57,937 nt of DNA from Candidatus Daviesbacteria bacterium (GTDB lineage Bacteria; Patescibacteriota; Microgenomatia; Daviesbacterales; UBA10151): NCBI GenBank assembly GCA_021731695.1, contig JAKFWZ010000053.1, forward strand, positions 1 to 57,937. Direction: 5' to 3'. The stretch's first letter is position 1, and each line of letters begins with the position of its first letter. The notes below the pieces were generated by a model. The model did not search any database and had not been told where the DNA came from. It worked only from the letters and a program-made list of their open reading frames with translations. Positions 13,046 through 30,829 of this stretch are shown here, piece by piece. The translations under genes and the position numbers were made by a program.

Positions 13046-16000
13046 CTATTTATACATTCTTAGAATCATCCAGACCACTCCATTCCAATACTCAAGACTC
13101 TTTGTCTGAATATTAAATCCGACTGTTCCCACTTTTGGATTTTTTGGTCGACCGGCCACATTCCACATCGGAATGGTTGGTGCGGAATTTGGCCCTTGCT
13201 GGAATCCGAGAGATTCATTAATTACAAAGTTATTTTTAAGAAAAATAGCAGGTTCCCGCGCAAGCACTTCAAGAGGAGGAAGCGATGGGCTGGGCGAAAT
13301 GGAAGATAAATCTGATGGTTGGGGTGCTGCAGCAGGTGCTGTTGCTGTTGAAGGTCCTGGTGGTCCAGGTGGTGTCGGACTTGGTGAAGGACTTGGTGAA
13401 GGACTTGGTGACGGTGAAACGCTTGTGCTTGGAGGTGGTGGGGCTGAAGGGCTAATAGAAGCAGAAGGTGATTCAGAGGAGCTTGCAGACGGACTTTGTG
13501 AAGCTGATGGGCTTACTGATACTGATGGAGAGACTGATTCGCTTGTTGAACCGGAGGGACTGGTAGATGGACTTTCTGAAACAGAAGGACTCGAGGATGG
13601 TGAAGCAGATGCTGAAGGTGATGTACTCGGGCTTTCGCTAATACTTGGCGAAGCAGACGGACTTTGTGAAGCAGACGGACTTGTTGAGACCGAAGGAGAT
13701 GCGCTAGGAGATGCACTTGGCGAAGCTGATGGAGAAATTGAAACTGATGGAGATGCTGAAGGCGACGCACTGACAGAAGGAGATGCACTTGGCGAAGCTG
13801 ATACAGAAGGTGAAGTCGACGGACTTGCTGACGGTGAAGCAGAAGGAGATGTGCTTGGAGACACAGATGGACTTACAGATGGGCTTAACGATACAGAAGG
13901 AGATGCACTTGGCGAAGCTGATACTGATGGACTGGTTGAAGGAGATGCGCTTACTGAAGGTGATGTTGAGGCTGATGGTGAGGTAGAAGGGCTTTCGCTA
14001 ACACTAGGCGAGGTCGAAGGCGATGCACTGACGGAAGGTGAAACTGAAACACTTGGGCTTGTAGATGGACTTTCTGAAACTGAAGGTGAAGTACTTGGAC
14101 TTGCACTAGCGCTGGGGCTAGTGGAGGCAGACGGGCTTACTGAAGGCGATGCGCTTACTGAAGGTGACGTACTAGGACTTAGTGATGCAGACGGGCTTGT
14201 GGATGGGCTTAATGATACTGAAGGTGATGTACTCGGGCTAGATGATGCAGAAGGTGAAGTTGATACAGAGGGACTAGTTGAAGGACTGGAAGATACCGAA
14301 GGACTTGTTGATACAGATGGGGATGTTGATGGTGAAGCAGATGCTGAAGGTGAAATAGAAACTGAAGGACTTGTTGATGGTGAAGCACTAACAGAAGGAG
14401 ATGTTGAAACTGAAGGTGAAGTTGATGGGCTAGATGAAACAGATGGACTTGTTGAAACTGATGGACTTGTACTTGGGCTTTCAGAGACAGAAGGTGAAAC
14501 AGAAACTGAAGGACTTGTTGATGGTGAAGCACTAACTGAAGGAGATGTTGAAACTGAAGGTGAAGTTGATGGGCTAGATGATACAGAAGGTGAAGTGGAA
14601 ACACTGGGTGAAGTAGATGGCGATGAGCTAACAGATGGTGATGTTGATACTGATGGACTGGTTGAAGGACTGGAACTTACCGAAGGTGAAACTGAAACAC
14701 TCGGACTGGTAGATGGACTTTCTGAAACAGATGGACTTAATGAAGGAGACAGCGAAGGAGACAATGATGGAGAAAGTGAAGGTGAAACCGATACACTAGG
14801 TGAAACTGATGGTGAGGAACTAACTGAAGGAGATGTACTTACAGAAGGACTTGTACTTGGACTTTCAGAGACTGAAGGTGATGTAGAAACTGAAGGACTA
14901 GTGCTTGGACTGGAACTTACTGAAGGTGAAGTTGAAACAGATGGTGACGTAGATGGTGAAGCACTAACAGATGGACTTGTTGAAACTGAAGGACTTGTTG
15001 ATGGTGACGCACTTACTGAAGGAGATGTACTTACAGAAGGACTAGTGCTCGGTGAAGATGATACAGATGGAGAGGTTGATACAGATGGGGATGTTGATGG
15101 TGAAGCACTTACTGAAGGAGATGTAGAAACTGAAGGTGATGTTGATGGGCTAGATGATACAGATGGTGAAGTTGATACAGAAGGTGATGTTGATGGTGAG
15201 GAACTAACTGAAGGAGATGTACTTACAGAAGGACTTGTTGATGGTGAGGAACTAACTGAAGGAGACGTAGAAACAGAAGGACTTGTACTTGGACTTTCAG
15301 AGACTGAAGGAGATGTTGATACTGAGGGACTAGTTGAAGGCGATGCGCTAACAGAGGGTGAGGTAGAAACGCTCGGACTTGTTGATGGTGAGGAACTTAC
15401 TGAAGGAGATGTAGATACTGAAGGTGAAGTACTTGGGCTAGAACTTACAGAAGGTGAAGTTGATACAGATGGGGATGTTGATGGTGAGGAACTAACTGAA
15501 GGAGATGTAGAAACTGAAGGTGAAGTACTTGGACTGGAACTTACCGAAGGTGAAGTGGATACTGAGGGGCTAGTTGAAGGACTGGATGAAACAGATGGAC
15601 TTGTTGAAACAGATGGACTTGTTGAAACAGAAGGACTTGTACTTGGACTTTCAGAGATTGAAGGTGAAGTTGATACTGATGGACTAGTTGAGGGACTGGA
15701 ACTTACTGAAGGTGAAGTTGATACTGATGGACTAGTTGAGGGACTGGAACTTACTGAAGGTGAAGTTGATACTGATGGGGATGTTGATGGTGAAGCACTA
15801 ACAGATGGACTTGTTGAAACAGAAGGACTAGTACTTGGACTGGAACTTACTGAGGGTGAAGTGGAAACACTAGGTGAAGTAGATGGCGATGAGCTAACAG
15901 ATGGTGATGTTGATACTGAAGGACTAGTGCTTGGACTGGAACTTACCGAAGGTGAAGTGGATACTGAGGGGCTAGTTGAAGGACTGGATGAAACAGATGG

Positions 16001-18241
16001 ACTTGTTGAAACAGAAGGACTTGTACTTGGACTTTCAGAGACTGAAGGTGAAGTGGATACTGATGGACTAGTTGAGGGACTGGAACTTACTGAAGGTGAA
16101 GTTGATACTGATGGACTAGTTGAGGGACTGGAACTTACTGAAGGTGAAACTGAAACACTCGGACTGGTAGATGGACTTTCTGAAACAGATGGACTTAATG
16201 AAGGAGAAAGACTTTGGCTAAGCGAAGGACTTAATGAAGGACTAATTGAAACAGAAGGGCTTACTGAAGGCGATTCACTAACTGAAGGTGAAACCGATAC
16301 ACTAGGTGAAACTGATGGTGAAGCACTAACTGAAGGAGATGTAGAAACTGAAGGTGAAGTTGATGGACTAGATGATACAGATGGACTTGTTGAAACTGAT
16401 GGACTTGTACTTGGGCTTTCAGAGACAGAAGGTGAAACAGAAACTGAAGGACTTGTTGAAGGAGATGAACTAACAGAGGGTGAGGTAGAAACGCTCGGAC
16501 TAGTAGAGGGGCTTTCAGAGACTGAAGGAGATGTAGATACTGAAGGTGAAGTACTTGGGCTAGAACTTACTGAGGGTGAAGTTGATACAGATGGTGATGT
16601 TGATGGTGATGCACTAACTGAAGGAGATGTAGAAACTGAAGGTGAAGTTGATGGGCTAGATGAAACAGATGGTGATGTTGATACTGAAGGACTGGTACTT
16701 GGGCTTTCAGAGACTGAAGGACTGACTGAAACCGATGGAGAAACTGAAGGTGAAGCAGATGGCCCTGATGCAACAGTAAAAAGGGCGCCAAAAGTATTCA
16801 TTGTCAAGGCCGTACCTGTTGCGCCTGTTATTAATACATAATTAATCTCGTCAGTTGCTGAAAATGAGTCTGAATTAGAAGAATCCTCAAACCAGCCTGT
16901 CGTATTAGCTGTTATAGAAACGCTTGAGTTAGCAGCCCCCTGATTCTTTCTTATGCTAAAAGTGCTGGCAGCTGAAACAGTATTTGCTGATATATAAATT
17001 TCTAAATTAGAGGCTGTGAAGGACATATTTGCCTCTGCAGATAAATCCGACTCAGTTACGACATTTGGGTTTGCATTTCCTCCAAGCGTTTGGTACCTTG
17101 TCAGGTTAGCGGTTATTGAGCGCCCGGTGCTTCTTCCATTAACTACGTGGAATTTATTCGCGGTCGAGATCATCTCGGTAGAAATAGTTTCAATAACCAG
17201 AGCATTGCTATCTGCCCCCATAACAATGGCGTAGTTAACTAAATCTCCTGAGACTAAAGAATCACTGTTTGAGGTGTCTTCGAAGATTCCTGTAGCTGAA
17301 GCAGTAATAGACACTGACAGGTTTCCGTTGGCAGTATTTACCCTGGATCTGACTGTAGATGTGGTGGTTCTTGCGTTAGAGCTGACATAAACAAAGAGAT
17401 TTTTCCAGGTGAATGAGGCTTTAACTTTAAATTGGTTGAGGGTTTCGTCAGTAGTATTAAGAGGCCCTAAGTAACTTCCTATTAGCGGATAGACAGTACC
17501 ATTGTTGGTAGTAATACTTAGGCCGTTACCAACCACGGCATGGTGGGTAACAGTTAAATCCGAAGAGCCGGTGTAAATTGAGGTTAAGGTGGTGTAAACG
17601 AAGCTACTTCCCCCAGACCCGACAGCTATAGAAGCGTTAACTTCATCACCTGCTAAAATTGAATCAGAGTTGGTGGTGTCCTCGAATTCTCCTGTTGTCG
17701 AGGCTGTTATGGAAACAGACTGATTTCCGTTTGCACCGTTAATACGGCTTCTGAGAGTTGAAGCACCCCTGTCGTTTGATGTTATCCGGATATAGAGCAT
17801 ACTCAGAGTTCCTGCGGTTCTGTAGGTAATCTGGGTATTAGCCTCAGTGGTAACATCGGCACTAATAAGGGTATTTGAGGCTAAAGGGGCATAATAAGTG
17901 GTGCTCGCACTTAAGCTAGTACCATTACCTGCTGAAGCTTGTAAAACTGATGTACCACCAGCTATGCTCGGAGAAACTGAAGGTGATGAGCTTACTGAAG
18001 GACTAGCTGAAGGTGAAATTGAAGGACTGGCTGAAGGTGAAATTGAAGGAGAAACTGAAGATGAAACAGAAGGACTTGCAGAGGCTCCTGCTATAATTGG
18101 ATAATTCTCACCTGGATATATCTGACCTGGATAGTCAGTTCCTATGCCTCCGGCATTATTTGTAGGATTTGTTGGAGCGCTTCCACCACTAGAATTAGCC
18201 TGGCCGGGGTATGCCCCGCCAAACGTGTTAGACCCATACAT
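13046..18241 (-). CDS. Giant Ser/Pro-rich repeat protein (1731 aa), putative surface glycoprotein
   Basis: Three tandem ~130-aa beta-rich repeats, ~1100 aa of SPSVSx-SPST-SPSVST repeats, short fibre-like C-terminal domain; co-oriented with the locus. Confidence 0.85.
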   Translation of the reverse strand: MYGSNTFGGAYPGQANSSGGSAPTNPTNNAGGIGTDYPGQIYPGENYPIIAGASASPSVSSSVSPSISPSASPSISPSASPSVSSSPSVSPSIAGGTSVLQASAGNGTSLSASTTYYAPLASNTLISADVTTEANTQITYRTAGTLSMLYIRITSNDRGASTLRSRINGANGNQSVSITASTTGEFEDTTNSDSILAGDEVNASIAVGSGGSSFVYTTLTSIYTGSSDLTVTHHAVVGNGLSITTNNGTVYPLIGSYLGPLNTTDETLNQFKVKASFTWKNLFVYVSSNARTTTSTVRSRVNTANGNLSVSITASATGIFEDTSNSDSLVSGDLVNYAIVMGADSNALVIETISTEMISTANKFHVVNGRSTGRSITANLTRYQTLGGNANPNVVTESDLSAEANMSFTASNLEIYISANTVSAASTFSIRKNQGAANSSVSITANTTGWFEDSSNSDSFSATDEINYVLITGATGTALTMNTFGALFTVASGPSASPSVSPSVSVSPSVSESPSTSPSVSTSPSVSSSPSTSPSVSTSPSVSASPSTSPSVSTSPSVSSSPSTSPSVSTSPSVSESPSTSPSVSTSPSVSSSPSTSPSVSVSPSVSESPSTSPSVSTSPSVSSSPSTSPSVSTSPSVSASPSVSPSVSVSPSVSESPSVSPSVSISPSLSPSLSQSLSPSLSPSVSESPSTSPSVSVSPSVSSSPSTSPSVSTSPSVSSSPSTSPSVSTSPSVSESPSTSPSVSTSPSVSSSPSTSPSVSTSPSVSSSPSTSPSVSTSPSVSSSPSTSPSVSTSPSVSSSPSTSPSVSTSPSVSASPSTSPSVSTSPSVSSSPSTSPSVSTSPSVSSSPSTSPSVSTSPSISESPSTSPSVSTSPSVSTSPSVSSSPSTSPSVSTSPSVSSSPSTSPSVSTSPSVSSSPSTSPSVSTSPSVSSSPSTSPSVSTSPSVSSSPSTSPSVSTSPSVSASPSTSPSVSTSPSVSESPSTSPSVSTSPSVSSSPSTSPSVSTSPSVSSSPSTSPSVSTSPSVSSSPSTSPSVSTSPSVSASPSTSPSVSTSPSVSSSPSTSPSVSTSPSVSASPSTSPSVSTSPSVSASPSTSPSVSTSPSVSSSPSTSPSVSTSPSVSESPSTSPSVSTSPSVSSSPSVSPSVSVSPSLSPSLSPSLSPSLSPSVSESPSTSPSVSVSPSVSSSPSTSPSVSTSPSVSSSPSTSPSVSTSPSVSSSPSTSPSVSTSPSVSASPSTSPSVSVSPSVSESPSTSPSVSTSPSVSSSPSTSPSVSTSPSVSASPSTSPSVSISPSASASPSTSPSVSTSPSVSSSPSTSPSVSTSPSASSSPSTSPSVSLSPSTSPSASLSPSTSPSVSASPSVSPSASTSPSASASPSTSPSVSESPSTSPSVSVSPSVSASPSTSPSVSESPSTSPSASTSPSVSASPSTSPSVSASPSASPSVSLSPSVSPSVSPSTSPSASPSASPSTSPSVSASPSASPSVSASPSASPSVSISPSASPSASPSASPSVSTSPSASQSPSASPSISESPSTSPSASASPSSSPSVSESPSTSPSGSTSESVSPSVSVSPSASQSPSASSSESPSASISPSAPPPPSTSVSPSPSPSPSPSPSPTPPGPPGPSTATAPAAAPQPSDLSSISPSPSLPPLEVLAREPAIFLKNNFVINESLGFQQGPNSAPTIPMWNVAGRPKNPKVGTVGFNIQTKSLEYWNGVVWMILRMYK

Positions 18242-19922: not shown

Positions 19923-21083
19923 CTATGTCGAAACGAAAGTGACTGCAGGCAGGATGGTTGCTGTTGAGCCCGCGCCTCCTGTTGTGCCTAGTTCGGATAA
20001 CGTAATGGCGCTCGGAATTGCATTACCTCCAAAGCCTGCCCTAGCTGTGTTTGTTAAGAATCCGACAATATGCCGTCCCCACCATGCGGTTTGGTTTGCG
20101 TTATTAGCACTCCAGGCTGTTGAAGCCGATCCGATAGGCATTAAGGATCCCGAGACCATATTTACCGGGTGGATTGGTTGACCTACAAGTCCAGCCAGAC
20201 TTAAACCATTAGTTGAGACTGTATTGGCAGTGCTCCTTAGGCGTAATAGGCCTAAATAATATTGTCCACCTGTTAAGGTGAAATTTCCACCAAATTGCAT
20301 TCCAATGATTCGTGAACCAGAGATATAGGACGATATATTGTTTGTGGATGAAAAGCTCGATGTTTGATAACCCCACGCAGATGTAGCTGTGGTCTGGGGA
20401 AAATTCCAGGTTATACTTCGGCTGCTTACTGATTCTCCAATAGAAAAAGAACTTGAGCTCATAAGGCTTAATGCAGTATCACCATTCATAGTATAAAGAC
20501 CATAATACGAGTAATACGTATTACTGCCCGAAGTATTAGATGTCAGTGTGATATAAGAGTAAGAATTACCGATAAGTATTTGATTAAATTGTAAGTTTGG
20601 GGGAACCGTAACCGGAAAAACAAATAGCGAATTGGTACCAATAAGCGATGTAGCGCCCAAGGTTTGAAATCCTGTTTGCGCAACTCCGGCAATAGCCAAA
20701 GGTTCCCAATAACTGATCGGATCGTTAACGTCATCGATTGTTTTATCAGTAATGCCGGCAGCTATCTGGTCGCCTACGACAATAGTCCGGTTAACGCTGG
20801 TATTGTTTGGTTCGCCTGTTGCTCCGTCTGCGCGGATAACAGTCAAGGTATCATCTTGGATATTGGTCACTCTGACAATCTCAGCAGTGGTTGCAGTACT
20901 GCCAGTCAGTGTTGGCTGTGCCCCGGTAGGCCAGATTGTGGCATTAAAAGGCGGAGAAGGGAATAAGATGCCCTGTCCATACTGAACGGTTATTGAAGTA
21001 CCGGAAGTTCCCGGATCGCTTCCGTTAGGGGAAGTCGTTCCGGTTACCGATGAATATGCAAAATTTTTATGTGCGTCAGCCAT
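19923..21083 (-). CDS. Fibre-like protein, paralog 1 (MADAHKNFAYS family)
   Basis: Shared N-terminal domain 'FP.PPFNATIWP...AEIVRVT...GDQI' and S/T/G-rich beta C-terminus. Confidence 0.7.
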   Translation of the reverse strand: MADAHKNFAYSSVTGTTSPNGSDPGTSGTSITVQYGQGILFPSPPFNATIWPTGAQPTLTGSTATTAEIVRVTNIQDDTLTVIRADGATGEPNNTSVNRTIVVGDQIAAGITDKTIDDVNDPISYWEPLAIAGVAQTGFQTLGATSLIGTNSLFVFPVTVPPNLQFNQILIGNSYSYITLTSNTSGSNTYYSYYGLYTMNGDTALSLMSSSSFSIGESVSSRSITWNFPQTTATSAWGYQTSSFSSTNNISSYISGSRIIGMQFGGNFTLTGGQYYLGLLRLRSTANTVSTNGLSLAGLVGQPIHPVNMVSGSLMPIGSASTAWSANNANQTAWWGRHIVGFLTNTARAGFGGNAIPSAITLSELGTTGGAGSTATILPAVTFVST

Positions 21084-21167
21084 ATTTAATTATAAAATCA
21101 AAGGTCAAAAGTCAAAAATCAAAAGTTCAAGTTAAAAATCAAAACTTTTAACTTTTAACTTCCTTTC

Positions 21168-22283
21168 TTATGTCATTACATTTGATTGTAAAGTTACAGC
21201 AGGTAAGACAGTGGCGATTGAGGCTGCAGCACTTGCGCCTAGGGCGCTGAGATGGATGCTTGCCGGAATCGTTGAACCTCCGAAATTAGCAAGGGAAGTA
21301 GCGGTTACAAAGGCAAGCATGTGACGCCCCCACCAGAGACTTGAATTACTTCGATTAGTTCCCCAAGAGGATGCTGCAAATCCGATAGGATTGTAACCGC
21401 TGATACTTCCTACGAGGTGATATGGATCAACCGGCTTGCCGATTACTCCGGCGACACTCATTCCGTTTGTGCTGTTATTTGCTGTGCTTCTAATTGACAT
21501 CACTCCCATATAATAAATCCCGTTTGTCAGATGCATTTCGCTGCCAAATTGTAAACCAAACCATCTGGTTCCTGAAATATAGTTGACTATTTGGGCAGTG
21601 TTTGACATGGCAAGCGTATCATACCCATAGCCACTGGTATTAGTGGTGGTTGCAAAGCTCCAGGTACGGCTTAGAGTGTTAAATGACTCGGCCATTGAAA
21701 AAGATCCGTTTGCCATCAGTGAAAGGGCAGTAGAAGCATTCATTGTATACAGCCCGAAATAAGAATAGTAAGAAGCACTCCCTTGTGCACTGCCTGTTAC
21801 ATAAGACACTGAAACAGGTAAAACCGCCTGATTAAACTGGACATTACCGTTGACTGTAACCGGAAATACGAGAAGGGATCCGCTGGAGGATTGTCCGGAA
21901 GCAGACGCAAGTGTTTGTAAGGCGGAACCTGCAGCTGAGGAAAAAATATAGGGCGACCAACTAGCAACGGGATTTTCAACCTCTTCCAAAGTTTTGGTAG
22001 TGATTGTTGCGGCAATTTGATCCCCAACTAAGATACCCCGTCTTGAACTCCCTTCCTGTGCTCTGGTAATAGTGAAAGTATCGGTTGATATTGCAGTTAC
22101 CCGAACAATCTCGGCATTGCCTGAAGTTGGTTGTGCGCTGGCAGGCCAGATGGTTGCATTAAAAGGAACAGCAGGGAATAAGGCTCCCTGTCCTGAACTT
22201 ACCACTAAACTTGTTCCCTTCGTTGTCGGTGAAGGAGCGGTCAAAACTGTTGAATATGCGAAATTTTTATGTGCGTCAGCCAT
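21168..22283 (-). CDS. Fibre-like protein, paralog 2; start codon supplied by inserted element
   Basis: Same domains as paralogs 1 and 3; ancestral ATG GCA GAC left at 22599. Confidence 0.7.
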   Translation of the reverse strand: MADAHKNFAYSTVLTAPSPTTKGTSLVVSSGQGALFPAVPFNATIWPASAQPTSGNAEIVRVTAISTDTFTITRAQEGSSRRGILVGDQIAATITTKTLEEVENPVASWSPYIFSSAAGSALQTLASASGQSSSGSLLVFPVTVNGNVQFNQAVLPVSVSYVTGSAQGSASYYSYFGLYTMNASTALSLMANGSFSMAESFNTLSRTWSFATTTNTSGYGYDTLAMSNTAQIVNYISGTRWFGLQFGSEMHLTNGIYYMGVMSIRSTANNSTNGMSVAGVIGKPVDPYHLVGSISGYNPIGFAASSWGTNRSNSSLWWGRHMLAFVTATSLANFGGSTIPASIHLSALGASAAASIATVLPAVTLQSNVMT

Positions 22284-22591
22284 GTAGTGAAATTATGACA
22301 AATTAAATTTTTCTACTTTCATATAAATAATCCTTAATCCTTCTTTTGATAAGCCGACCTCCTTGTGTTGTCTTCAGATATTTTTCTCTTCGCTCGGCAT
22401 CGCTTTTTTCAATGCATGCTTCATAGTATATAAGTTTCCAGGGCATATATCTTTTAGTAGAAAAATTTAATCCATTATTATGTTCTACTAGCCGTTTTTT
22501 TAAGTCCGCTGTATATCCAATATAATGTTCTTTATTAGTCTCGCTTTCTAAAATGTAGACGTAGAACATAAGTCATAATTCTACTACATGG
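22280..22591 (-). mobile_element. 312-bp GIY-YIG mini-element with terminal inverted repeats
   Basis: ccatgtagtgaaattatgac / gtcataattctactacatgg IR; flanks TCAG and TCTG. Confidence 0.75.
22303..22569 (-). CDS. Stand-alone GIY-YIG nuclease (YhbQ/UPF0213-like)
   Basis: 'FYVYIL.S....YIGYT.DL.KR..EHN...PWKLIYYEA.....A..RE.YLK'. Confidence 0.9.
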   Translation of the reverse strand: MFYVYILESETNKEHYIGYTADLKKRLVEHNNGLNFSTKRYMPWKLIYYEACIEKSDAERREKYLKTTQGGRLIKRRIKDYLYESRKI

Positions 22592-22613
22592 TCTGCCATT
22601 TTTTTATTAATTT

Positions 22614-22740
22614 ACCAAGTAACAAGATACAAGTTTTCCAAATAAATTCCAAATTCTAAATCTTAATATTCAAACTTTTTGGTACTTGTGATTTGATTCT
22701 TGGTTATTGTTTGTTCCTTGTTCCTTGTATCTTGGTTATT
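22614..22740. repeat. Long degenerate hairpin built from 7-mers
   Basis: A-rich arm (accaagt aacaaga tacaagt) facing T-rich arm; shares acaaacaataaccaa (inverted) with 57294-57421. Confidence 0.65.
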
Positions 22741-22745
22741 TCATT

Positions 22746-23876
22746 TTAGGTGCTTACCAAGCTTACTAAAGGTAAAACGGTTGCTATTGTGTTGGCGGTT
22801 TGGAAGTTTGCAAGTTCTATAGCACTCGGTAGTCTCGTGCCTCCATATCCCGCCTGCTGGGTATTGGTAACAAACCCCATGATAAATCTGCCATTCCAGC
22901 CGGAAATATCGACGTTACTTTGAGCAAATTCACCCGGACCAAAACCTAGAGGATTCAGCCCGCTCGCGCTCCCCGCCATATTAATTGGGTTGATCACCTG
23001 TCCGATTAATCCGGCATGGGAAAATCCGATAGAGGAAACTCCTCCGGCAGTACTTCTGTAGGTAAGCAGCGCCAGCCAATACATTCCGGCGCTTAAACTC
23101 ATCTCTCCACCAAATTGCAGTCCGACTTTGCGTGCACCTGCAACATAGCTTGAGCCTTGAGCTACAGCAGTTATAGCACCTAAGTTGCCGTTGCCATAAC
23201 CATATCCACTTGTTGCGGTCGAGGTTGGAAAATTAGACGTAAAACTTACGCCTGAATTTGAATCAAGAATACTAAAAGAGCTGGACGAAATAAGAGCCAT
23301 GGTGTTAGATGTCATACTATAAATTCCAAAATTGGAAAAATATGTATTGCTGGCCGCGGTATTAGAAGTCATATAGGATTGAGATTGCGCAATAATAACC
23401 TGATTGAATTTAATCGGGAAGGGGATGGTCATCGGGAAGGCATAAATACTTCCTGTGCCTGTAGTGCTCGAATTTGCTGCCAGAGTCTGGACTCCGGTTC
23501 CGGCTGAAACCGCAATAGCAGGTGACCAGCTGTTTATATAATTTGCCTCAAGATCAGTAAAAAGTTTGGCGGTAACAGTCGCAGCAACTTGATCGCCTAC
23601 AACAATACTGCGCACACTAGAACCTTCTTGCTGAGCGCGAGGATCAGATCCTGGGGATAAGGTAAATGTGTCAGTCGCAATGGATGTAACTCTAACAATT
23701 TCTGCATTAGCAGTTGTTGGTTGTGATCCACTTGGCCAGACTGTTGCATTAAAAGGTGGAGTAGGAAATTTTGCTCCGTCTCCTGATTGAACAACTAACG
23801 TAAATCCAGTAGTTGCTGGGGAAGGAGCGGTTGCTACTGTTGAATATGCGAAATTTTTATAATCGTCTAGAGCCAT
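22746..23876 (-). CDS. Fibre-like protein, paralog 3
   Basis: 'MALDDYKNFAYSTVATAPSPAT...FPTPPFNATVWP...AEIVRVT'. Confidence 0.7.
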   Translation of the reverse strand: MALDDYKNFAYSTVATAPSPATTGFTLVVQSGDGAKFPTPPFNATVWPSGSQPTTANAEIVRVTSIATDTFTLSPGSDPRAQQEGSSVRSIVVGDQVAATVTAKLFTDLEANYINSWSPAIAVSAGTGVQTLAANSSTTGTGSIYAFPMTIPFPIKFNQVIIAQSQSYMTSNTAASNTYFSNFGIYSMTSNTMALISSSSFSILDSNSGVSFTSNFPTSTATSGYGYGNGNLGAITAVAQGSSYVAGARKVGLQFGGEMSLSAGMYWLALLTYRSTAGGVSSIGFSHAGLIGQVINPINMAGSASGLNPLGFGPGEFAQSNVDISGWNGRFIMGFVTNTQQAGYGGTRLPSAIELANFQTANTIATVLPLVSLVST

Positions 23877-24188: not shown

Positions 24189-24248
24189 TTCGTTATTCGT
24201 TATTCGTTATTCGTTATTCGTTATTCGTTATTCGTTATTCGTTATTCG
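24189..24248. repeat. (TTCGTTA)n heptamer array starting at a stop codon
   Basis: About 8.5 perfect units overlapping the TAA of 24242..26272. Confidence 0.9.
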
Positions 24249-26272
24249 CTATGAATCCACTTCTTGTTTTCTTCAAGTAAATTGCGGGTAAGCTCAGGGG
24301 AGTAGTTGAGACTTTCAGCCCAGGCACACCAGGCATAAATATCTTTAGGAATGCACTTTGAATTAAAGCCGCGTTTATCAGGAAAAACGAACGTCCACCA
24401 TAAATTAAATCGGGGATCGTCTCCATAAACTGCATCGCGAATGGTGTAGTAATCAATCCCGGCTTTTTCGCAGACATCATAAAGCTCCTGACATTGTGCA
24501 ACTTTAAAAGCGATAGCTCTATTTTCTGTGAGCTTAATTACTTCAGCCTCATAAGAAGTAACCTGTCTGATTTTAATATTGGCATTATAAACCGTTGCAT
24601 AAAGGTCGATTAACATTCTTCGGTCTTCTGGCGCGCCCCCAAGGATTAAAAATGGAACATTTTTTTCATCAAAAAGGGGGTGTTGTGCAGTTTCACCAAG
24701 ATATTCGGGCTGTATAACAATTCTTTTATTATATTTTTTGGATAAATAATCGCCAGTTCCGGGATTTACCGTCGATCTGATAACTATCAGCGGGGACTCG
24801 CTCCAGGCGACGCATTCTTCGACAATGCTTATATCTAAAGCTCCTTCGCCGATAGATGGAGTAGGCACGCAAATGAAAGCCACATCCGCCTGATTGGCTT
24901 TACTTTTGCTTCTTGATGCAGGCGGGTTATAAATATAGGCGTCAGGGAAGAGCCTGTGAACTGATTTTCCCACCCAGCCGTGTCCAATGATTGTTACTGT
25001 CATGGCCGGAGTTACCTTTCTTGGCCTGCCTCGTCCAGGTCTGGATTCTGTAGTACTTGTTAAGGGTTCAGATTCTTCAGGTTCTCCAGAGATAATATTT
25101 ATTTCTTCCTCAGCTTCTAAAGATTCGAGCTGTTTTTCATCATTAGCCACTAGTGGAGTAATTGTGATTTCGCTTTCGACTTGCTCTGCCGTTGTTTCGT
25201 TTGGAGTTGAAACTGTTGCCTGAATTTCATCTTTTGCGCCAACCACATTTTCTAAAGGCTCACTTTCTACCGGTTTAGGCTCCGCGTTTTCTTTAAATTC
25301 AAAAGTATTTGCTTTAAGTTTTGCTAAATCTTCATCAGTCCAGCCTCTAATCGGCCAGAATTTTTCAACCAGCCAGCTTAAGGGTCGAATTTGTTTATCC
25401 CAATTATTATCAAAAAACAGACTTCTAGCATATGCCTTGGCTTTTTCCTGATCTCTGTTTGAAATAGGATAGGGAAAACCAAAATCTCCGCCCTGAGTTC
25501 TGAACATATGAGCGTACCAGGTGTTTTGGTTAACTAAAACTTTGCCTCCCGAAAGCCAGGTTTTACATGCCACTTCAATTCCCTGAGAGCCCCAGCTGCC
25601 GAACTTTTCATCGCAGATATTAAGCTCGTTGTATTTTTCGCGGGTTAGCATCCAGCAGGAACCCTGAAGCGACATAGTTTCTGTTAATCCTTTTTCTTTT
25701 TTGTCAGTCTCATATTTTGGCCTGTGTTTCCAATCTTCAAAATATTGAAAGTGGGGGGTTGAGTCAAAACAATAAGAAGTGCTTCGCGGATTATTTTTTC
25801 CAACCCACATCATTTTTCTTCTTAAACGATCAGTTTTTCCGCACTGCTCGCATTTTTCTGGAGTTGGTCCCTGATATTTTTTCCATCCGCAGTGATAACA
25901 TTTCCAATCAAAAGCCCATAGATTCCTCATTACAGGCACCATGGTTGTATCGTCACCGGCGACTTTAAATGCCTCAATCATCTTACGGTCAAAGCCTTTA
26001 TCAAATGAGCAATGTGCATCGCATTTCATAACATATTTGGCTTTAGAGAGTTTGCAGGCTAGATTTGTGGCAGCTCTTTGGCCGATGCTCTTCGGCACAT
26101 AAATTACATTAACTCTGTCGTTTTGGGGGATAGATGGATCCGCCCATTTGCCGTCTAAGACTGCAATAACTTCTGTATCAGCTTCGATGTTGGAGAGAAT
26201 ATCTTCAATAGTTCGGCCTAAAAACATTTCATTGCGACTAGGAATTAATATGCTCAGGTCTCGTGCGGACAT
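24242..26272 (-). CDS. GT2 glycosyltransferase fused to a UDP-glucose/GDP-mannose dehydrogenase-like domain
   Basis: 'LSILIPSRNE..L..TI', 'MKCDAHC', CxxC/CxxC insert; acidic linker; 'IIGHGWVG', 'FICVPTP', 'RSTV.PGT', 'PEYL', 'GF..KCIPKD'. Confidence 0.8.
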   Translation of the reverse strand: MSARDLSILIPSRNEMFLGRTIEDILSNIEADTEVIAVLDGKWADPSIPQNDRVNVIYVPKSIGQRAATNLACKLSKAKYVMKCDAHCSFDKGFDRKMIEAFKVAGDDTTMVPVMRNLWAFDWKCYHCGWKKYQGPTPEKCEQCGKTDRLRRKMMWVGKNNPRSTSYCFDSTPHFQYFEDWKHRPKYETDKKEKGLTETMSLQGSCWMLTREKYNELNICDEKFGSWGSQGIEVACKTWLSGGKVLVNQNTWYAHMFRTQGGDFGFPYPISNRDQEKAKAYARSLFFDNNWDKQIRPLSWLVEKFWPIRGWTDEDLAKLKANTFEFKENAEPKPVESEPLENVVGAKDEIQATVSTPNETTAEQVESEITITPLVANDEKQLESLEAEEEINIISGEPEESEPLTSTTESRPGRGRPRKVTPAMTVTIIGHGWVGKSVHRLFPDAYIYNPPASRSKSKANQADVAFICVPTPSIGEGALDISIVEECVAWSESPLIVIRSTVNPGTGDYLSKKYNKRIVIQPEYLGETAQHPLFDEKNVPFLILGGAPEDRRMLIDLYATVYNANIKIRQVTSYEAEVIKLTENRAIAFKVAQCQELYDVCEKAGIDYYTIRDAVYGDDPRFNLWWTFVFPDKRGFNSKCIPKDIYAWCAWAESLNYSPELTRNLLEENKKWIHSE

Positions 26273-27187: not shown

Positions 27188-27897
27188 TAGAGATTGAAGA
27201 GCTCCTTTAGATTCCAGCCGGGTATTTTATCAAGAGTAGTTGTTTTGAGATTAACAGGTGGATGTTTAAAGCTATCCAGAGTAACCTTTGTCGGGGAGAA
27301 AGTTTTACCATGTCTGATGTCAATGATTGGTTCTTTTGATGCCCAGACTTCAAAATTATCATCAGTAAATCCGCCCCGTTTAATTTTCTTTGTGCCTGGT
27401 TCATACCCCCAGCGCCTTGCCCATAAAGGTTCGTGCCCTATAACTGACTCGAGATTTAACTCTTCTATTTTATTAAGTCGGGATTTATAATGATTAAGGG
27501 CAAGTTCCCGGTTGACGCAAAGACCAGAGAGGCAAATTAATCTATCGTAAGTGATTGCATAATCATCGGGATATTTCCATCTCCAAACATTATTGTTGTA
27601 ATAAAAAATATTATCTTTTGGCGGTTGATACTCAAAGTGGGAAGCAGGGTAGAGAACGTCGTGTTCACAGAAAAATACATAATCTTCTTTGGCGTTTTCA
27701 AGGGCTGTGGTAATTTGTTTTGTCATAGTTATAAAACTCGGGGTTAGATTTAAAACTATATTATTTCCAAAATTGATTGGTTTGAGGGACACACTCGTTA
27801 CGGGTAATCCGGAGGACTGAATTGTTTGCTGGACTATAGAGAAAATAGGCTCGTTTAACCTATTATCAGTATAATAAATTATTCCTTTGCTACTCAT
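27187..27897 (-). CDS. GT-A-like hypothetical protein
   Basis: 'IIYYTDN', 'VFFCEHDVLYP..HF'; paralog of 32433..33113. Confidence 0.55.
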   Translation of the reverse strand: MSSKGIIYYTDNRLNEPIFSIVQQTIQSSGLPVTSVSLKPINFGNNIVLNLTPSFITMTKQITTALENAKEDYVFFCEHDVLYPASHFEYQPPKDNIFYYNNNVWRWKYPDDYAITYDRLICLSGLCVNRELALNHYKSRLNKIEELNLESVIGHEPLWARRWGYEPGTKKIKRGGFTDDNFEVWASKEPIIDIRHGKTFSPTKVTLDSFKHPPVNLKTTTLDKIPGWNLKELFNL

Positions 27898-28429
27898 GTT
27901 TTTTTCTTACGACCACCAGCCAGTCGTCATACCTTTCTTTACGGCGGTTTAGTTTAGGGACTTCTATCTCGTAAGCGGTCAGGCTCTTTATGATATTTAA
28001 GTCTGCAACATCTTCGATAATATAAATGACATCGTCTTTGAGTAGAGGCATAAGAGTGAGGCAGGTTAGGATTTGATCCTCTGGTTTGTGGGAGCCGTCT
28101 TCAACTACAAAATCCAAATCTGCCCCGGTTTTTTTAATTAACTCTCGTAGATTCTTTTCGGAAGAGTGGTCGCATTTTATAACTTCTATCCGATTATCTT
28201 TAAAAATACGTTTATCATCTATTTCCGCTCCATATATCATTGCATTGGGGAAAAAATCTCTCCACATTCTAAGGCCTGGACCTTCACCGACTCCTATTTC
28301 AAGAACTTTTTTAATTGACTTACGCTCGTTACTGAACAAATCAGAGTAATAGGGGGTATAGCTGTGTTTTGAACCCGGATGCCTGTCGGTGCCGTATTTT
28401 TTTGCAAGTATGGTTAGGTCGTCGTTCAT
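27890..28429 (-). CDS. SAM-dependent (sugar O-)methyltransferase
   Basis: 'KKYGTD', 'KVLEIGV', 'MWRDFFPNA.IYG', 'EDGSH', 'YIIED'. Confidence 0.8.
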   Translation of the reverse strand: MNDDLTILAKKYGTDRHPGSKHSYTPYYSDLFSNERKSIKKVLEIGVGEGPGLRMWRDFFPNAMIYGAEIDDKRIFKDNRIEVIKCDHSSEKNLRELIKKTGADLDFVVEDGSHKPEDQILTCLTLMPLLKDDVIYIIEDVADLNIIKSLTAYEIEVPKLNRRKERYDDWLVVVRKKHE

Positions 28430-28430
28430 C

Positions 28431-29048
28431 TTAAGGTTTAATCCACATCCAGCTTCTGAATCTGTCTCTTATTTCATTATCTCTGCGTTCTCTTCTGCCT
28501 AAAAGATACCAGTTTTTTATGTCGTAAGCCTGAGTGAAAGCGTTGACTACATAAATTACATGAACCGTTCCAGCCTTGGTTTTTCCGCTGGTATAAATAT
28601 AGTCGTGCCCGCAAATCACTCCTCCTTTTTTTACTTTCCTGCTCCATTCAGCTAAGTCTTCAGCGATATATCTGAACTGGTGATTACCGTCAATATAAAC
28701 AAAATCCAGACTCTCATCTTCAAAGTCTACAACCGCTTCCATGGAAGTCTTTCTGATAATCTCGCAGTTGGGATATGGTGCTAGAACTCTTTTGGTGTGT
28801 TCGTATAAAAAATTCAGCCTGTCCTGAATCGGGGATTCATGATAATTTTTATCGTATTTCCATGGGTCGATTGCAAATAATTTAAGTCCGGCTTTAGCGA
28901 AATGTATTGAAAATTCACCTTTATCCACGCCTATTTCTGCACCAACCTTAAAACCCATATCAACGAAAAATTGAGGTAAATCATCGCGAGAGCAATCCGG
29001 GATTTCTGCCGGCGCGCCTGTGAGTTTTAATCCATCAATTAGTTTCAT
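28431..29048 (-). CDS. Class I methyltransferase (Methyltransf_24-like), tandem paralog 1
   Basis: 'GAEIGV..G', 'AIDPW', 'LDFVYIDGNH', 'GGVICGHDY'. Confidence 0.85.
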   Translation of the reverse strand: MKLIDGLKLTGAPAEIPDCSRDDLPQFFVDMGFKVGAEIGVDKGEFSIHFAKAGLKLFAIDPWKYDKNYHESPIQDRLNFLYEHTKRVLAPYPNCEIIRKTSMEAVVDFEDESLDFVYIDGNHQFRYIAEDLAEWSRKVKKGGVICGHDYIYTSGKTKAGTVHVIYVVNAFTQAYDIKNWYLLGRRERRDNEIRDRFRSWMWIKP

Positions 29049-29131
29049 TGTTAGTAGTTATGAGTTATGGATAATGAGTTATGAGTGGGGAGTTTGTAGA
29101 ATTTGTTTAACTCCTAACTCCTAACTCATAA

Positions 29132-29755
29132 CTATTTAATAATCATCCAGCTCAAAGTCTTATCATTTCTGGGGTCTTTGCTGCCCGATTCCGGATGACC
29201 GAAAGTGTAAAAGTTTTCAATCTTAAAGGTTTTAACAAAAGCATCAACAACATGACTGACATGACATAAAACATTGTTAGCCCCGGGATCAGTACAGAAG
29301 TAATCGTGTCCGGCAATAATTCCGCCCTTTCTGACTTTATTCCACCAGAAGAAAAGATCTTCAGCGATGTAGGGGAAGCGGTGATCCCCGTCAATATAAA
29401 CAAAGTCTAAACTTCCGTCCTTAAAATCCTTTAGAGCTTCCATGGAAGTCTTTCTGATAATTGTGCAGTCTTTATATGGAGCGAGAGTTCTTTGGGTATG
29501 TCCATATAAAAAATCCTGTCTTTCCTGCGCCTTCTGGCTTCTGCCTGCGCCTTCGTAAGCTTTCCAGGGATCAATAGCGTACATTTTTAACCCTGCTTTG
29601 CAGAATTTTTCAGTAAATGCTCCTTTATGAATGCCTATTTCTGCTCCTGTTTTGAATCCCATAGCAGCAAAAAACTCAGGAAGTTCTTCCCTTGAATTGT
29701 CAGGGATATGAGCCGGTGCACCTTTTAGTTGTTTTATACCGTCGATTAATTTCAT
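29132..29755 (-). CDS. Class I methyltransferase, tandem paralog 2
   Basis: Same motifs, MKLID start. Confidence 0.85.
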   Translation of the reverse strand: MKLIDGIKQLKGAPAHIPDNSREELPEFFAAMGFKTGAEIGIHKGAFTEKFCKAGLKMYAIDPWKAYEGAGRSQKAQERQDFLYGHTQRTLAPYKDCTIIRKTSMEALKDFKDGSLDFVYIDGDHRFPYIAEDLFFWWNKVRKGGIIAGHDYFCTDPGANNVLCHVSHVVDAFVKTFKIENFYTFGHPESGSKDPRNDKTLSWMIIK

Positions 29756-29811
29756 AGTTAGTTAGTTAGTTAGTTAGTTTTGCGATGAACGAATAACGAA
29801 TAACGAACTAA

Positions 29812-30426: not shown

Positions 30427-30542
30427 CCCGTTAGAAGCAGATCGCGATCAATCTATCGATGACCGGCTCCTTTCTTATTAATTCCATATAGTCTTTTATT
30501 ATCATAATCTAATGCGTCCTGCGATCGCGGCTTCTAACGGGA
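30426..30542. mobile_element. MITE of the CCCGTTAGAAG family
   Basis: tcccgttagaagc ... gcttctaacggga IR; TCA(T) duplicated on both sides. Confidence 0.75.
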
Positions 30543-30829
30543 TCATGGTTTCTTGCTTCGGGTAAGATTTTCCCCGTTAGATGTAGGAACTGTTTTAGCC
30601 TATTTTTTAAGTAGCGTTTACCCATCCCGGATTTTAAATATTTTTCCCTTGCTTGTGCATCTTCTTCATTAATACATGCTTCATAATATATTAGTTTCCA
30701 AGGACCTCGTGATTTTGTCCATGTTGATTTGCCTTCAGTATGTTCTTTGAAACGCTTCCGCAAGTCGACTGTATAACCAGTGTACATTTTTCCGTCCTTT
30801 TCACTTTTTAATATATACGTATAAAACAT
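30509..30829 (-). CDS. Stand-alone GIY-YIG nuclease; C-terminus reads into repeat ends
   Basis: 'FYTYILKS...YTGYT.DLRKR..EH...PWKLIYYEA...AREKYLKSGMG'; ccccgttaga at 30572. Confidence 0.9.
   Translation of the reverse strand: MFYTYILKSEKDGKMYTGYTVDLRKRFKEHTEGKSTWTKSRGPWKLIYYEACINEEDAQAREKYLKSGMGKRYLKNRLKQFLHLTGKILPEARNHDPVRSRDRRTH

What the first reader, a model, noticed from the sequence alone, without database searches (positions are those of the whole stretch)
22276..22599. GIY-YIG mini-transposon that inserted in a start codon region and rebuilt the gene start
Seen on the minus strand: ATG G-CAGA-[ccatgtagtagaattatgac...GIY-YIG...gtcataatttcactacatgg]-CTGA-C GCA CAT. The 312-bp unit has 20-bp IRs (2 mismatches) and a near-perfect 4-bp duplication (CAGA/CTGA). 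Removing it restores M-A-D-A-H, and its terminal ATGG supplies a new ATG so the gene stays intact. Its only ORF is an 88-aa GIY-YIG nuclease, not a recognised transposase. Inference: a minimal mobile element mobilised by or dependent on GIY-YIG.
Basis: partly seen in the sequence, partly recalled or inferred. Interest (0 to 1): 0.85.

Follow-up and report, generated by a model that had tools for sequence, protein, structure and literature searches.

The report
Start-codon-targeting GIY-YIG mini mobile element
A 312-base mobile DNA unit that carries only a tiny nuclease gene has landed exactly on the start of a bacterial gene and rebuilt that start, and it belongs to a large family, apparently undescribed, that does the same thing in many ultra-small bacteria.

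Summary
On the minus strand, 22591..22280 is a 312-bp unit. It has 20-nt inverted repeats with 2 mismatches, unique in the window and the genome. It holds one 88-aa GIY-YIG ORF and is flanked by CAGA/CTGA. The host gene starts with an ATG inside the right repeat and still reads MADAH.

The unit is one member of a conserved family. 52 relatives from other genomes share the end motif, the mismatch position and a size of about 296-356 bp. 35 of 53 have a perfect direct repeat of 4 bp or more, against a mean of 7 in re-paired controls. In 36-37 of 53, a same-strand host gene starts within a few bases of the right end (mirrored control 1 of 53).

Orthologous empty sites exist. dnaB-like and recR genes are adjacent in 6 of 6 relatives fetched. 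All 7 typA starts and all 17 host-family starts examined are uninterrupted.

The nuclease is under purifying selection (dN/dS 0.05-0.08), is Slx1/UPF0213-like and is modelled as a homodimer. A short leader ORF from the old start suggests a translational relay.

The family profile hits 203 of 401 sampled genomes of the phylum. Nine literature searches found no description.

That the nuclease itself moves the element is inferred, not shown.

The parts
22280..22591 (-). Whole element, 312 bp, ends CCATG...CATGG
   Evidence: Same architecture in 52 relatives, spans 296-356 bp.
22572..22591 (-). Left (upstream) inverted repeat CCATGTAGTAGAATTATGAC
   Evidence: Family consensus (T)CCCGTAGTAGAATTTTGA.
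22280..22299 (-). Right inverted repeat. Its last bases CATGG carry the host gene's present ATG (22283-22281).
22303..22569 (-). 88-aa GIY-YIG (Slx1/UPF0213-like) nuclease ORF, stop included
22573..22599 (-). Leader mini-ORF MADHVVEL-stop. It starts at the relic of the original host ATG and ends 3 nt before the nuclease ATG.
   Evidence: A short leader of this kind is present in 30 of 53 family loci.
22592..22595 (-). Left copy of the 4-bp target duplication (CAGA), preceded by the relic ATGG at 22596-22599
   Evidence: Family duplication statistics.
22276..22279 (-). Right copy of the duplication (CTGA, one mismatch)
21168..22283 (-). Host gene, 371 aa. It is the middle of three tandem paralogues, and its N-terminal part resembles phage tail-fibre families.
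19923..21083 (-). Paralogue with an uninterrupted identical start (paralogous empty site)

Best explanation
The 312-bp unit is an insertion of a small IS-like mobile element. It consists of two roughly 20-nt terminal inverted repeats and one gene, a minimal Slx1/UPF0213-type GIY-YIG nuclease.

Shown by sequence and comparison:
- It inserted 8 bases into the host ORF and duplicated 4 bp (CAGA).
- The element ends in ...CATGG, so the gene regained an in-frame ATG and the same N-terminus.
- Family members sit in the same orientation directly in front of, or on, the start codon of unrelated host genes. They carry a 3-6 bp duplication (typically 4 bp) that usually contains part of the ATG.

Inferred:
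1. The nuclease, probably as a dimer, recognises its own ends. The two arms always differ at the same position 9-10 nt from the tip, so the ends may be read as a mismatched stem rather than as two identical duplex sites.
2. It makes a staggered cut of about 4 nt at the target.
3. The element has no expression signals of its own and lives on the host gene's signals. Ribosomes start at the old host ATG, read a 7-8 codon leader that stops just before the nuclease ATG, translate the nuclease, terminate 0-25 nt before the rebuilt host ATG and re-initiate there.
For: - Conserved architecture: of 80 loci fetched by the protein, 7 were too near a contig end. 56 of the remaining 73 have an inverted repeat flush with the ORF. 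52 of these plus the window copy were analysed.
- Conserved asymmetry: the same arm asymmetry (AG against GA) is seen across loci with 47-81% protein identity to the window copy. It folds as an outer helix of 9-12 bp, a 1x1 mismatch and an inner helix of 10-13 bp.
- Co-variation: repeat sequence types change together with protein subgroups.
- Target duplication: a perfect repeat of 4 bp or more in 35 of 53 loci, against a mean of 7.0 and maximum of 12 in 200 re-pairings.
- Start-codon position: a host ATG within -6..+3 of the right end in 36 of 53 loci. The mirrored control gives 1 of 53, and random flank positions give 815 of 17237.
- Diverse hosts: typA, recR, dnaG, ligA, gap, smpB, def, purQ-like and others, named by me from their N-terminal sequences.
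- Empty sites.
- ORF-less miniature copies with the same ends occur in this genome: C45 3-93 and 523-614, and window 30427-30541.
- Protein integrity: 50 of 52 ORFs are intact. The catalytic Y5, Y16, R26 and E62 are invariant. dN/dS is 0.05-0.08 in the 5 pairs where dS was computable.
- Fold: AF2 pLDDT 93.9. Nearest structures are UPF0213 BH0048, At-HIGLE and Slx1.
- Homodimer model: score 0.68, best of 3 controls 0.00. That mark was reached by 20 of 30 proteins solved as pairs of one chain and 1 of 23 solved as single chains. The runs agree in 100% of contacts and the partner pLDDT is 86.
- Leader ORF: present in 30 of 53 loci; the window copy reads MADHVVEL-stop.
Against: - No direct sign of recent movement. 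This repeat type is single-copy in the genome.
- Copies within four multi-copy genomes are divergent, and only 10 of 30 have a repeat above the 95th percentile of shuffled controls.
- The best between-genome DNA identity is 89.6%, at an orthologous position.
- No empty-site contig was seen in 4 runs.
- Some insertions are shared by related species: L022/L025, and four dnaG loci. Together with strong purifying selection, this could mean a host-useful gene rather than an active parasite.
- GIY-YIG enzymes are hydrolytic nucleases and none is known (recalled) to carry out strand transfer. The element encodes nothing else.
- The window copy's duplication has a mismatch. Its rebuilt ATG needs the element's last four bases to equal the gene's first four.
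- This genome does hold DDE transposase genes.
- Y1_Tnp presence is weakly associated with the family (odds ratio 2.2, not corrected for kinship).
- Solved Slx1 entries, including a stand-alone Slx1 (4xm5), rank among the nearest folds. I recall a solved Slx1 homodimer, so the dimer pass may reflect likeness to solved structures.
Confidence: 0.58

Rival explanations
1. The element is real and mobile, but another enzyme moves it in trans. Candidates are a Y1/RAYT-like or DDE transposase, or host recombination. The GIY-YIG gene would then be cargo or a helper, for example making the target break.
For: - Y1_Tnp genes are present in 4 of 4 other element-bearing genomes tested and in 110 of 203 family-positive genomes (odds ratio 2.2).
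- The arms contain GTAG, which I recall as the conserved tetranucleotide of REP sequences handled by RAYTs.
- DDE transposase genes exist in this genome.
- No GIY-YIG transposase is known (recalled).
Against: - This genome is 97% complete and has 0 Y1_Tnp hits, yet it holds the element, related elements and ORF-less copies with matching ends.
- 93 of 203 family-positive genomes have no Y1_Tnp hit. These include a one-contig genome with 10 copies and one with 11.
- Families with many Y1_Tnp genomes have no element: f41 15 of 19 against 0 of 19, and f31 10 of 23 against 0 of 23.
- Contigs with DDE genes lack the end motif.
- Repeat type co-varies with nuclease subgroup.
- The arms are not themselves palindromes.
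Confidence: 0.15
2. It is a free-standing homing endonuclease gene. The nuclease cuts element-free alleles, and the gene is copied in by recombinational repair. The repeats and duplications would be secondary.
For: - GIY-YIG is a classic homing endonuclease fold. There are weak matches to phage homing endonuclease families (phrog_5123, 3.4e-4) and to TIGR01453 (23.5 bits).
- Some positions are shared across species, for example dnaG in four genomes.
- The copy number per lineage is low.
Against: - Homing needs no terminal repeats or target duplication, yet both are family-wide.
- Host genes are unrelated to each other.
- The protein has no DNA-binding domain beyond the 88-aa core.
- The TIGR01453 score is far below its cut-off of 56.
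- ORF-less copies with the same ends exist.
Confidence: 0.1
3. It is no longer, or never was, a parasite. It would be a domesticated upstream cistron: a small repair or structure-specific nuclease kept in front of certain genes and co-translated with them. The repeat stem would then serve mRNA folding or processing, for example RNase III cleavage.
For: - dN/dS is 0.05-0.08.
- There are orthologous insertions in related species.
- The single strand folds with paired ends, z = -6.2.
- Earlier work treats prokaryotic Slx1-like proteins as vertically inherited repair enzymes (PMC1564403, passages read).
- GIY-YIG ORFs lie in non-intron insertions of CPR rRNA genes.
Against: - Empty orthologous sites in close relatives.
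- Target duplications.
- Dozens of unrelated host genes.
- ORF-less copies.
- 2 of 52 copies are decayed.
- Patchy distribution: 203 of 401 genomes, with 0 to 13 copies.

These are marks of insertion, whatever the present role.
Confidence: 0.12
4. The element is removed at the RNA level, or is skipped by ribosomes, so the gene is expressed from the old start.
For: - Matching sequences flank the element and its ends pair.
- One relative (L034) sits 10 codons inside an ORF.
Against: - No ribozyme: only about 45 non-coding bases, and no Rfam match better than E = 0.88.
- The host ATG is rebuilt at the right end in most loci.
- In L034 an in-frame ATG inside the element keeps the frame open.
- A 312-nt bypass has no precedent that I know of (recalled).
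Confidence: 0.03

Closest known systems
Bacterial insertion sequences and MITEs (terminal inverted repeats plus target-site duplication)
   Same: Short terminal inverted repeats, a 3-6 bp direct duplication, empty orthologous sites and ORF-less miniature derivatives.
   Different: - The only protein is an 88-aa GIY-YIG nuclease, not a DDE, HUH, serine or tyrosine transposase.
- The element is about 310 bp, smaller than any autonomous IS that I recall.
- Its orientation and position are tied to start codons.
- It has no expression signals of its own.
IS200/IS605 and REP/RAYT systems (recalled)
   Same: A minimal element whose ends may act as imperfect hairpins, a gene flanked by inverted structured ends, and ORF-less hairpin copies. 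A GTAG motif is present.
   Different: - No Y1 (HUH) protein: 0 hits in this genome.
- Target duplications are present, whereas IS200/IS605 makes none (recalled).
- The arms are not self-palindromic.
Free-standing GIY-YIG homing endonucleases of phages (Seg/Mob type; only the search listing of PMC2988022 was seen)
   Same: A GIY-YIG nuclease gene placed between or next to host genes with little harm to them.
   Different: - No DNA-binding domain.
- Terminal repeats and duplications are present.
- Many unrelated targets.
- Almost absent from viral contigs: 8 loci, only one at 50% identity.
Slx1, At-HIGLE and UPF0213 (BH0048, EF2693) structure-selective or stand-alone GIY-YIG nucleases
   Same: Closest by sequence and fold. 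Entry titles name branched-DNA processing by Slx1-Slx4.
   Different: Those are described as repair or recombination enzymes inherited vertically (PMC1564403, passages). No repeats or mobility are reported for them.
GIY-YIG ORFs in non-intron insertions of CPR rRNA genes (PMC11270868, passages read)
   Same: Same phylum and same protein superfamily. The insertions are not introns and were judged not to spread by homing.
   Different: In the passages read, that paper does not describe terminal repeats, duplications, start-codon targeting or protein-gene hosts. Its supplements were not seen.
Rickettsia palindromic elements and other in-gene palindromic repeats (recalled)
   Same: Palindromic mobile DNA tolerated inside or at coding regions.
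   Different: Those elements have no ORF and are read through in frame. This one rebuilds the start codon and carries a nuclease.

Membership tests
GIY-YIG nuclease superfamily (Pfam PF01541) | GIY and YIG motifs with catalytic Arg and Glu, and the three-stranded sheet plus helices fold | tested here: met
   - Pfam 9.7e-19, above its cut-off.
- Y5, Y16, G18, R26 and E62 are invariant in 51 sequences.
- AF2 model has pLDDT 93.9 with strands 2-9, 15-20 and 44-52.
- Foldseek hits to Slx1, I-TevI and UvrC domains.
Bacterial Slx1-like / UPF0213 stand-alone nucleases | About 90-100 aa with no accessory domain, closest to BH0048 and EF2693 | tested here: met
   - phmmer: 1zg2 at 5.9e-4 and 1ywl at 2.1e-3.
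- Foldseek rank 1 is 1zg2, followed by At-HIGLE and Slx1.
- The E-values are modest, so this is a subfamily-level assignment only.
Homing endonuclease (I-TevI/Seg type) | Nuclease domain joined to a DNA-binding domain, with one long specific target | tested here: not met
   - 88 aa with a single domain.
- TIGR01453 scores 23.5 bits against a cut-off of 56.
- Hosts are unrelated genes.
Insertion sequence | Terminal inverted repeats and target-site duplication | tested here: met
Insertion sequence | Encodes a transposase of a recognised class | tested here: not met
   The only ORF is GIY-YIG.
Insertion sequence | Presence/absence polymorphism at orthologous sites | tested here: met
   - dnaB-like/recR: 6 of 6 relatives are empty.
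- typA: 7 of 7 relatives fetched are uninterrupted.
- For the window's own locus there is only family-level and paralogue evidence.
Insertion sequence | Near-identical copies at several sites of one genome | tested here: not met
   - Single copy of this repeat type in G000.
- Copies within four other genomes are divergent.
REP/RAYT or IS200/IS605 | Y1 HUH transposase and self-palindromic ends | tested here: not met
   - PF01797 has 0 hits in G000.
- 93 of 203 family-positive genomes lack it.
Group I/II intron or IStron | Ribozyme structure | tested here: not met
   The best Rfam match has E = 0.88. Only about 45 bases are non-coding.
GIY-YIG-driven transposition (proposed here) | The protein binds and cuts its own ends and the target with a stagger of about 4 nt | not testable with these tools
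   Only indirect evidence: co-variation of ends with protein, and a dimer model scoring 0.68 against a best control of 0.00.

The most novel reading that the evidence does not exclude
This would be a new class of prokaryotic DNA transposon whose sole protein, and transposase, is a minimal Slx1-like GIY-YIG structure-specific nuclease.

- It would read its own ends as a mismatched stem.
- It would integrate with a 4-nt stagger at translation start sites and rebuild the start codon from its duplication or its own terminal bases.
- It would be expressed only by a translational relay: host start, then a 7-codon leader, then the nuclease, then the host gene.

The family occurs in about half of the sampled Patescibacteria genomes and has ORF-less derivatives. 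The near-constant duplications within subgroups (TGGA/TGAA, TATG) leave open a cut-and-ligate mode, in which sticky ends carried from the donor must match the target.
Probability: 0.45. Interest if true: 0.92.

Novelty: categorically new. Interest (0 to 1): 0.86.

Why it matters
If the nuclease moves the element, GIY-YIG joins DDE, HUH, serine and tyrosine enzymes as a chemistry used by autonomous DNA transposons. It would be the smallest such element known to me.

It would also give a function to the widespread small Slx1/UPF0213-like GIY-YIG genes. These are usually annotated as repair nucleases, and 203 of 401 sampled genomes of this phylum carry this family, with up to 13 copies in genomes of about 1 Mb.

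The start-codon strategy shows how a parasite can live in genomes with almost no intergenic space, by borrowing and then restoring the host's translation start.

For annotation, it explains duplicated start fragments and odd upstream ORFs in CPR genomes. It also offers a compact start-site-seeking nuclease for study.

Tried and rejected
- Empty site in the source population: contigs of 4 coded runs were laid on 21300-23500. The apparent joints and loose ends were the starts of the two paralogues. No element-free junction was seen. Contigs drop rare variants, so this says little.
- Orthologues of the host gene: none in 40 relatives, so no orthologous empty site exists for this exact locus.
- Second element of the window (30573-30842) against same-genus genomes: the G005 counterpart is a fused longer gene, so it is not a clean empty site.
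- Near-identical copies as proof of recent movement: none at 95% or more among 53 elements or within four multi-copy genomes.
- Known RNA family: none found.
- Promoter and terminator scan: nothing above shuffle expectation.
- Phage vector: the family is nearly absent from viral contigs. The pattern-based scan gave 8 loci, one at 50% identity.
- TnpB-type domain PF07282: 0 hits in G000.
- Literature: nine full-text searches found no paper describing inverted-repeat-flanked small GIY-YIG elements. I read passages only of PMC12455944, PMC8565304, PMC1564403 and PMC11270868. Supplements are closed, and those of PMC11270868 could list related insertions.

Rows dropped before counts:
- 7 of 80 loci were too near a contig end.
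- 17 of 73 had no clear repeat by my threshold. Among these, L057 is masked with N, and L069, L071 and L078 have only a short repeat.
- 4 more were set aside. For L019 and L037 my script chose a wrong register, although the motif is visible. L086 and L088 carry other repeat types.
- L063 and L081 (broken ORFs) were left out of the protein alignment.
Full report
**1. The observation**

Read on the minus strand, the sequence is ...AAAAAATGG-CAGA-[CCATGTAGTAGAATTATGAC-TT-ATG...(88 codons)...TAA-TTT-GTCATAATTTCACTACATGG]-CTGA-CGCACATAAAAATTTC....

- The repeat finder gives arms 22280-22299 and 22572-22591, 20 nt, 90% complementary.
- The arm pattern occurs only at these two places in the window. 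0.01 matches are expected, and 0 of 100 shuffles gave two.
- Allowing up to 4 mismatches, it occurs nowhere else in the 1.45-Mb genome, apart from two 4-mismatch singletons.
- The enclosed ORF (22569..22303, 88 aa) matches Pfam GIY-YIG at 9.7e-19.
- The host ORF (22283..21168, 371 aa) begins at the ATG formed by the last bases of the right arm and reads MADAHKNFAYS.
- The next paralogue (start 21083) has the same first 23 bases with no insertion.
- Contigs from independent coded runs cross both junctions.

**2. Setting**

- The window is a whole contig (C4) of a 102-contig genome: 1.45 Mb, 37.7% G+C, 97% complete.
- Genomes of the same phylum in the held collection are 0.5-2 Mb.
- The named records with the closest element relatives are MAGs labelled Nomurabacteria, Paceibacterota, Saccharibacteria and Patescibacteria group. 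I infer that the organism is a Patescibacterium (CPR).
- The host gene is the middle of three tandem paralogues (19923-23876). They have no Pfam match, and the N-terminal part resembles phage tail-fibre families (phrog_8469, 9.4e-14).
- Around them lie a GT2/UDP-glucose dehydrogenase fusion and a row of methyltransferase paralogues.

**3. A family, not a one-off**

A scan of one genome per species with the 88-aa protein returned 138 relatives, of which the best 80 were kept. Seven of the 80 lay too near a contig end. Of the other 73, 56 have an inverted repeat flush with the ORF. I analysed 52 of these plus the window copy; the dropped rows are listed under Tried and rejected.

- Spans are 296-356 bp.
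- The arms share a motif, (T)CCCGTAGTAGAATTTTGA on the left and the same with GTGAAA on the right.
- The two 'mismatches' of the window copy (AG against GA) are therefore a conserved asymmetry. They are present, in either orientation, across loci with 47-81% protein identity.
- When the two arms are folded together, the pattern in 17 loci examined is an outer helix of 9-12 bp, a 1x1 mismatch (or a small internal loop in two subgroups), then an inner helix of 10-13 bp.
- The inner-helix sequence differs between protein subgroups and both arms change together.

**4. Target duplication**

I allowed the ambiguous palindromic tip bases to belong to either the repeat or the flank. On that basis, a perfect direct repeat of 4 bp or more abuts the arms in 35 of 53 loci, and one of 3 bp or more in 39 of 53. 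When left and right flanks of different loci are paired (200 permutations), the mean is 7.0 and the maximum 12.

Typical duplications are TGGA, TGAA, TATG, TGTT and AGAA. The window's CAGA/CTGA with ends CC...GG fits this register exactly.

**5. Position at start codons**

- In 37 of 53 loci, a same-strand ORF of 60 aa or more begins within -6..+3 of the right end. In 6 more it begins at +6..+13.
- Counting ATG starts only, the figure is 36 of 53. The mirrored test (an opposite-strand gene at the left end) gives 1 of 53. Random flank positions give 815 of 17237, or 4.7%.
- The hosts are unrelated: typA, recR, dnaG, ligA, gap, smpB, def, purQ-like, transporters and others. I named these from their N-terminal sequences.
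- The start codon is usually regenerated because the duplication contains TG or ATG and the element's last base supplies the rest, for example ATGGA[TCCC...GGGA]TGGA.
- In L044 the last G of the element plus TG gives GTG.
- In the window copy the element's own CATGG gives the whole ATG.
- In several relatives the nuclease stop overlaps the host ATG, as ATGA or TGATG.

**6. Empty sites**

- L020 (recR). In relatives G071, G072, G048 and G084, the dnaB-like gene upstream and recR are 97-139 nt apart in matched coordinates. In L020 the distance is 564-596 nt. The six regions fetched (those four plus G080 and G081) all show recR's ATG a few bases after the upstream gene, with no element. Three of them begin ATGGA, the predicted target.
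- L018 (typA). All 7 relatives fetched lack the element. Five begin with the same ATGGAAAT... as the L018 right flank. One relative, G059, carries two copies of the element elsewhere.
- The window's own gene. No orthologue exists in 40 relatives. However, 17 of 19 metagenomic homologue loci start ATGGCNGAYGCNCA..., that is MADAH, uninterrupted. The other two were partial matches.

The one mismatch in the window's duplication lies at a synonymous site, and the downstream copy equals the neighbouring paralogue. Later mutation or gene conversion is therefore a sufficient explanation (inference).

**7. ORF-less derivatives**

This genome has pairs of the related end motif CCCCGTTAGAGA that enclose 91-92 bp (C45 3-93 and 523-614). 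They lie next to a 277-bp GIY-YIG copy with the same ends (C45 786-1062).

A 115-bp pair sits at window 30427-30541, exactly on the ATG of a methyltransferase gene. It lies just downstream of a second, more decayed GIY-YIG copy at 30573-30842.

Similar mini-hairpins flank several fetched loci: L037, L046, L054, L077 and L093.

**8. The protein**

- 50 of 52 ORFs are intact. L063 has a stop and L081 a frameshift.
- In the 51-sequence alignment, Y5, Y16, G18, R26, E50, D57, R61, E62 and K66 are invariant.
- dN/dS is 0.05-0.08 in the five pairs where dS was not saturated. Five further pairs were saturated.
- The AF2 model is confident, with pLDDT 93.9.
- The nearest solved chains are UPF0213 BH0048, At-HIGLE and Slx1 from several entries, ahead of I-TevI and UvrC.
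- A two-copy model passed the controls: score 0.68 against a best control of 0.00. The mark was reached by 20 of 30 proteins solved as pairs of one chain and by 1 of 23 solved as single chains. Contacts agree 100% between runs and the pLDDT is 86. The interface is strand 47-54 plus residues 77-81.
- Solved Slx1 entries, including a stand-alone Slx1 (4xm5), rank among the nearest folds, and I recall a solved Slx1 homodimer. The pass may therefore reflect likeness to known structures.

**9. Expression**

- The relic of the old host start opens a mini-ORF, MADHVVEL-stop, that ends 3 nt before the nuclease ATG.
- A short leader of 12 codons or fewer, ending 0-20 nt before the nuclease ATG, is present in 30 of 53 loci. 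Most are 7 codons, M-x-P/H-V-V-x-x, with a 7-nt gap.
- In 1 locus the junction ATG is in frame with the nuclease, and 12 have no start codon at the junction.
- The nuclease stop lies from 2 nt inside the right end to about 25 nt before it in most loci; three lie further away, at 33-64 nt.
- No promoter-like or terminator-like site above shuffle expectation lies in the element.

I infer a termination-reinitiation relay that uses the host's signals. This is not shown.

**10. Is another transposase responsible?**

- PF01797 (Y1_Tnp) has 0 hits in this genome, but hits in four other element-bearing genomes.
- In an even sample of 401 genomes of the phylum, the family profile hits 203 (E <= 1e-15) and Y1_Tnp hits 180.
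- The cross-table is 110 with both, 93 with the element only, 70 with Y1_Tnp only and 128 with neither. The odds ratio is 2.2, uncorrected for kinship.
- The 93 element-only genomes include a one-contig genome with 10 copies and one with 11.
- Taxonomic families rich in Y1_Tnp can have no element (f41, f31), and the reverse also occurs (f33).
- This genome has rve and DDE_Tnp_1 hits on C62, C63, C70 and C88. None of these contigs carries the end motifs.

A second enzyme is therefore not excluded, but nothing points to one.

**11. Evidence against an active parasite**

- Copies within a genome are divergent, and only 10 of 30 copies in four multi-copy genomes have a repeat above the 95th percentile of shuffled controls.
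- Some insertions are shared by related species.
- Selection on the protein is strong.
- No element-free contig was seen in the runs holding this genome.

These facts fit rare movement with long residence, or partial domestication.

**12. Mechanism and odds**

That this is an insertion of a conserved mobile-element family, which rebuilt the start codon, I hold at about 0.9. For how it moves:

| Reading | Probability |
|---|---|
| The GIY-YIG protein itself mobilises it | about 0.58 |
| Trans-mobilisation by another enzyme | 0.15 |
| Domesticated upstream cistron | 0.12 |
| Homing | 0.10 |
| RNA-level removal or ribosomal bypass | 0.03 |

Within subgroups the duplications are nearly constant (TGGA/TGAA, and TATG in five loci). 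This could mean sequence preference, or a cut-and-ligate mode in which donor and target overhangs must match. That is inference only.

**13. Comparison with what is known**

It works most like an insertion sequence, with repeats, duplication, empty sites and miniature derivatives. It fails the defining feature of a recognised transposase, and it is tied to start codons.

It shares the nuclease fold with homing endonucleases. It lacks their DNA-binding domain and single target, and it has features that homing does not produce.

Nine full-text searches found no description. The nearest hints in print are these:
- A 2006 survey asked whether further GIY-YIG members might be molecular parasites, while treating prokaryotic Slx1-like proteins as vertically inherited (PMC1564403, passages).

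The search covers only the held library, and supplements were closed.

**14. Verdict**

The finding generalises to a widespread family that, as far as my searches reach, is undescribed. Interest is 0.86.

Noticed in passing
window 30427-30842 (minus strand): A second, more decayed GIY-YIG copy (30573-30842, 54% identical protein) is followed by a 115-bp ORF-less inverted-repeat unit (30427-30541). That unit sits exactly on the ATG of a methyltransferase gene (29812-30426). In a same-genus genome the counterpart is fused to the upstream gene.
   Followed up: partly
G000 contigs C34:7802-7999, C79:315-467, C14:25180-25383: Other, more distant small GIY-YIG ORFs of this genome are flanked by their own, different inverted repeats. 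In C34 and C79 these are nested arms of about 13+13 nt; in C14 the arm is 11 nt. Flanking repeats may therefore be general for small GIY-YIG genes.
   Followed up: no
L089, L093, L095, L097; L166, L169, L184: Several distant family members without the tight repeat lie directly beside sequences that look like tRNA genes, judged by T-arm and D-arm-like strings. I did not run the tRNA finder on them.
   Followed up: no
L046, right flank of the element: An ORF-less unit of about 150 bp lies 18 bases inside a pilin-like gene. An ATG inside the unit keeps the frame open through the right arm, so the G/FTLLE prepilin-type motif is preserved.
   Followed up: no
L034: The element lies 10 codons inside a purQ-like ORF. 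An in-frame ATG within the element gives the host protein a 15-residue N-terminal extension instead of a rebuilt start.
   Followed up: partly
L020 positions about 1328-1474 (genome G042): The 145 nt just upstream of that element is itself a repeat, with at least 10 copies in G042 and copies in G049 and G055. It is another small repeat family of unknown nature.
   Followed up: no
window 19923-23876: Three tandem paralogues (49-54% identical) have a strictly conserved N-terminus MADAHKNF or MALDDYKNF and a tail-fibre-like N-terminal part. Metagenomic homologues are also preceded by similar C-terminal ends, which suggests tandem arrays elsewhere.
   Followed up: partly
window 13046-18241: A 1731-aa ORF without a Pfam match is overlapped on the opposite strand by a 1222-aa open frame (13173-16841).
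   Followed up: no
window 27890-30426: A row of four Methyltransf_24 paralogues sits next to a GT2/UDP-glucose dehydrogenase fusion (24242-26272). This looks like a variable surface-modification island.
   Followed up: no
L086 (Cyclobacterium salsum, a cultured Bacteroidota isolate): A relative with 51% protein identity has a perfect 14-nt inverted repeat, a 317-bp span and a TGTTA direct repeat. The architecture is therefore not confined to Patescibacteria and exists in a cultivable strain.
   Followed up: partly
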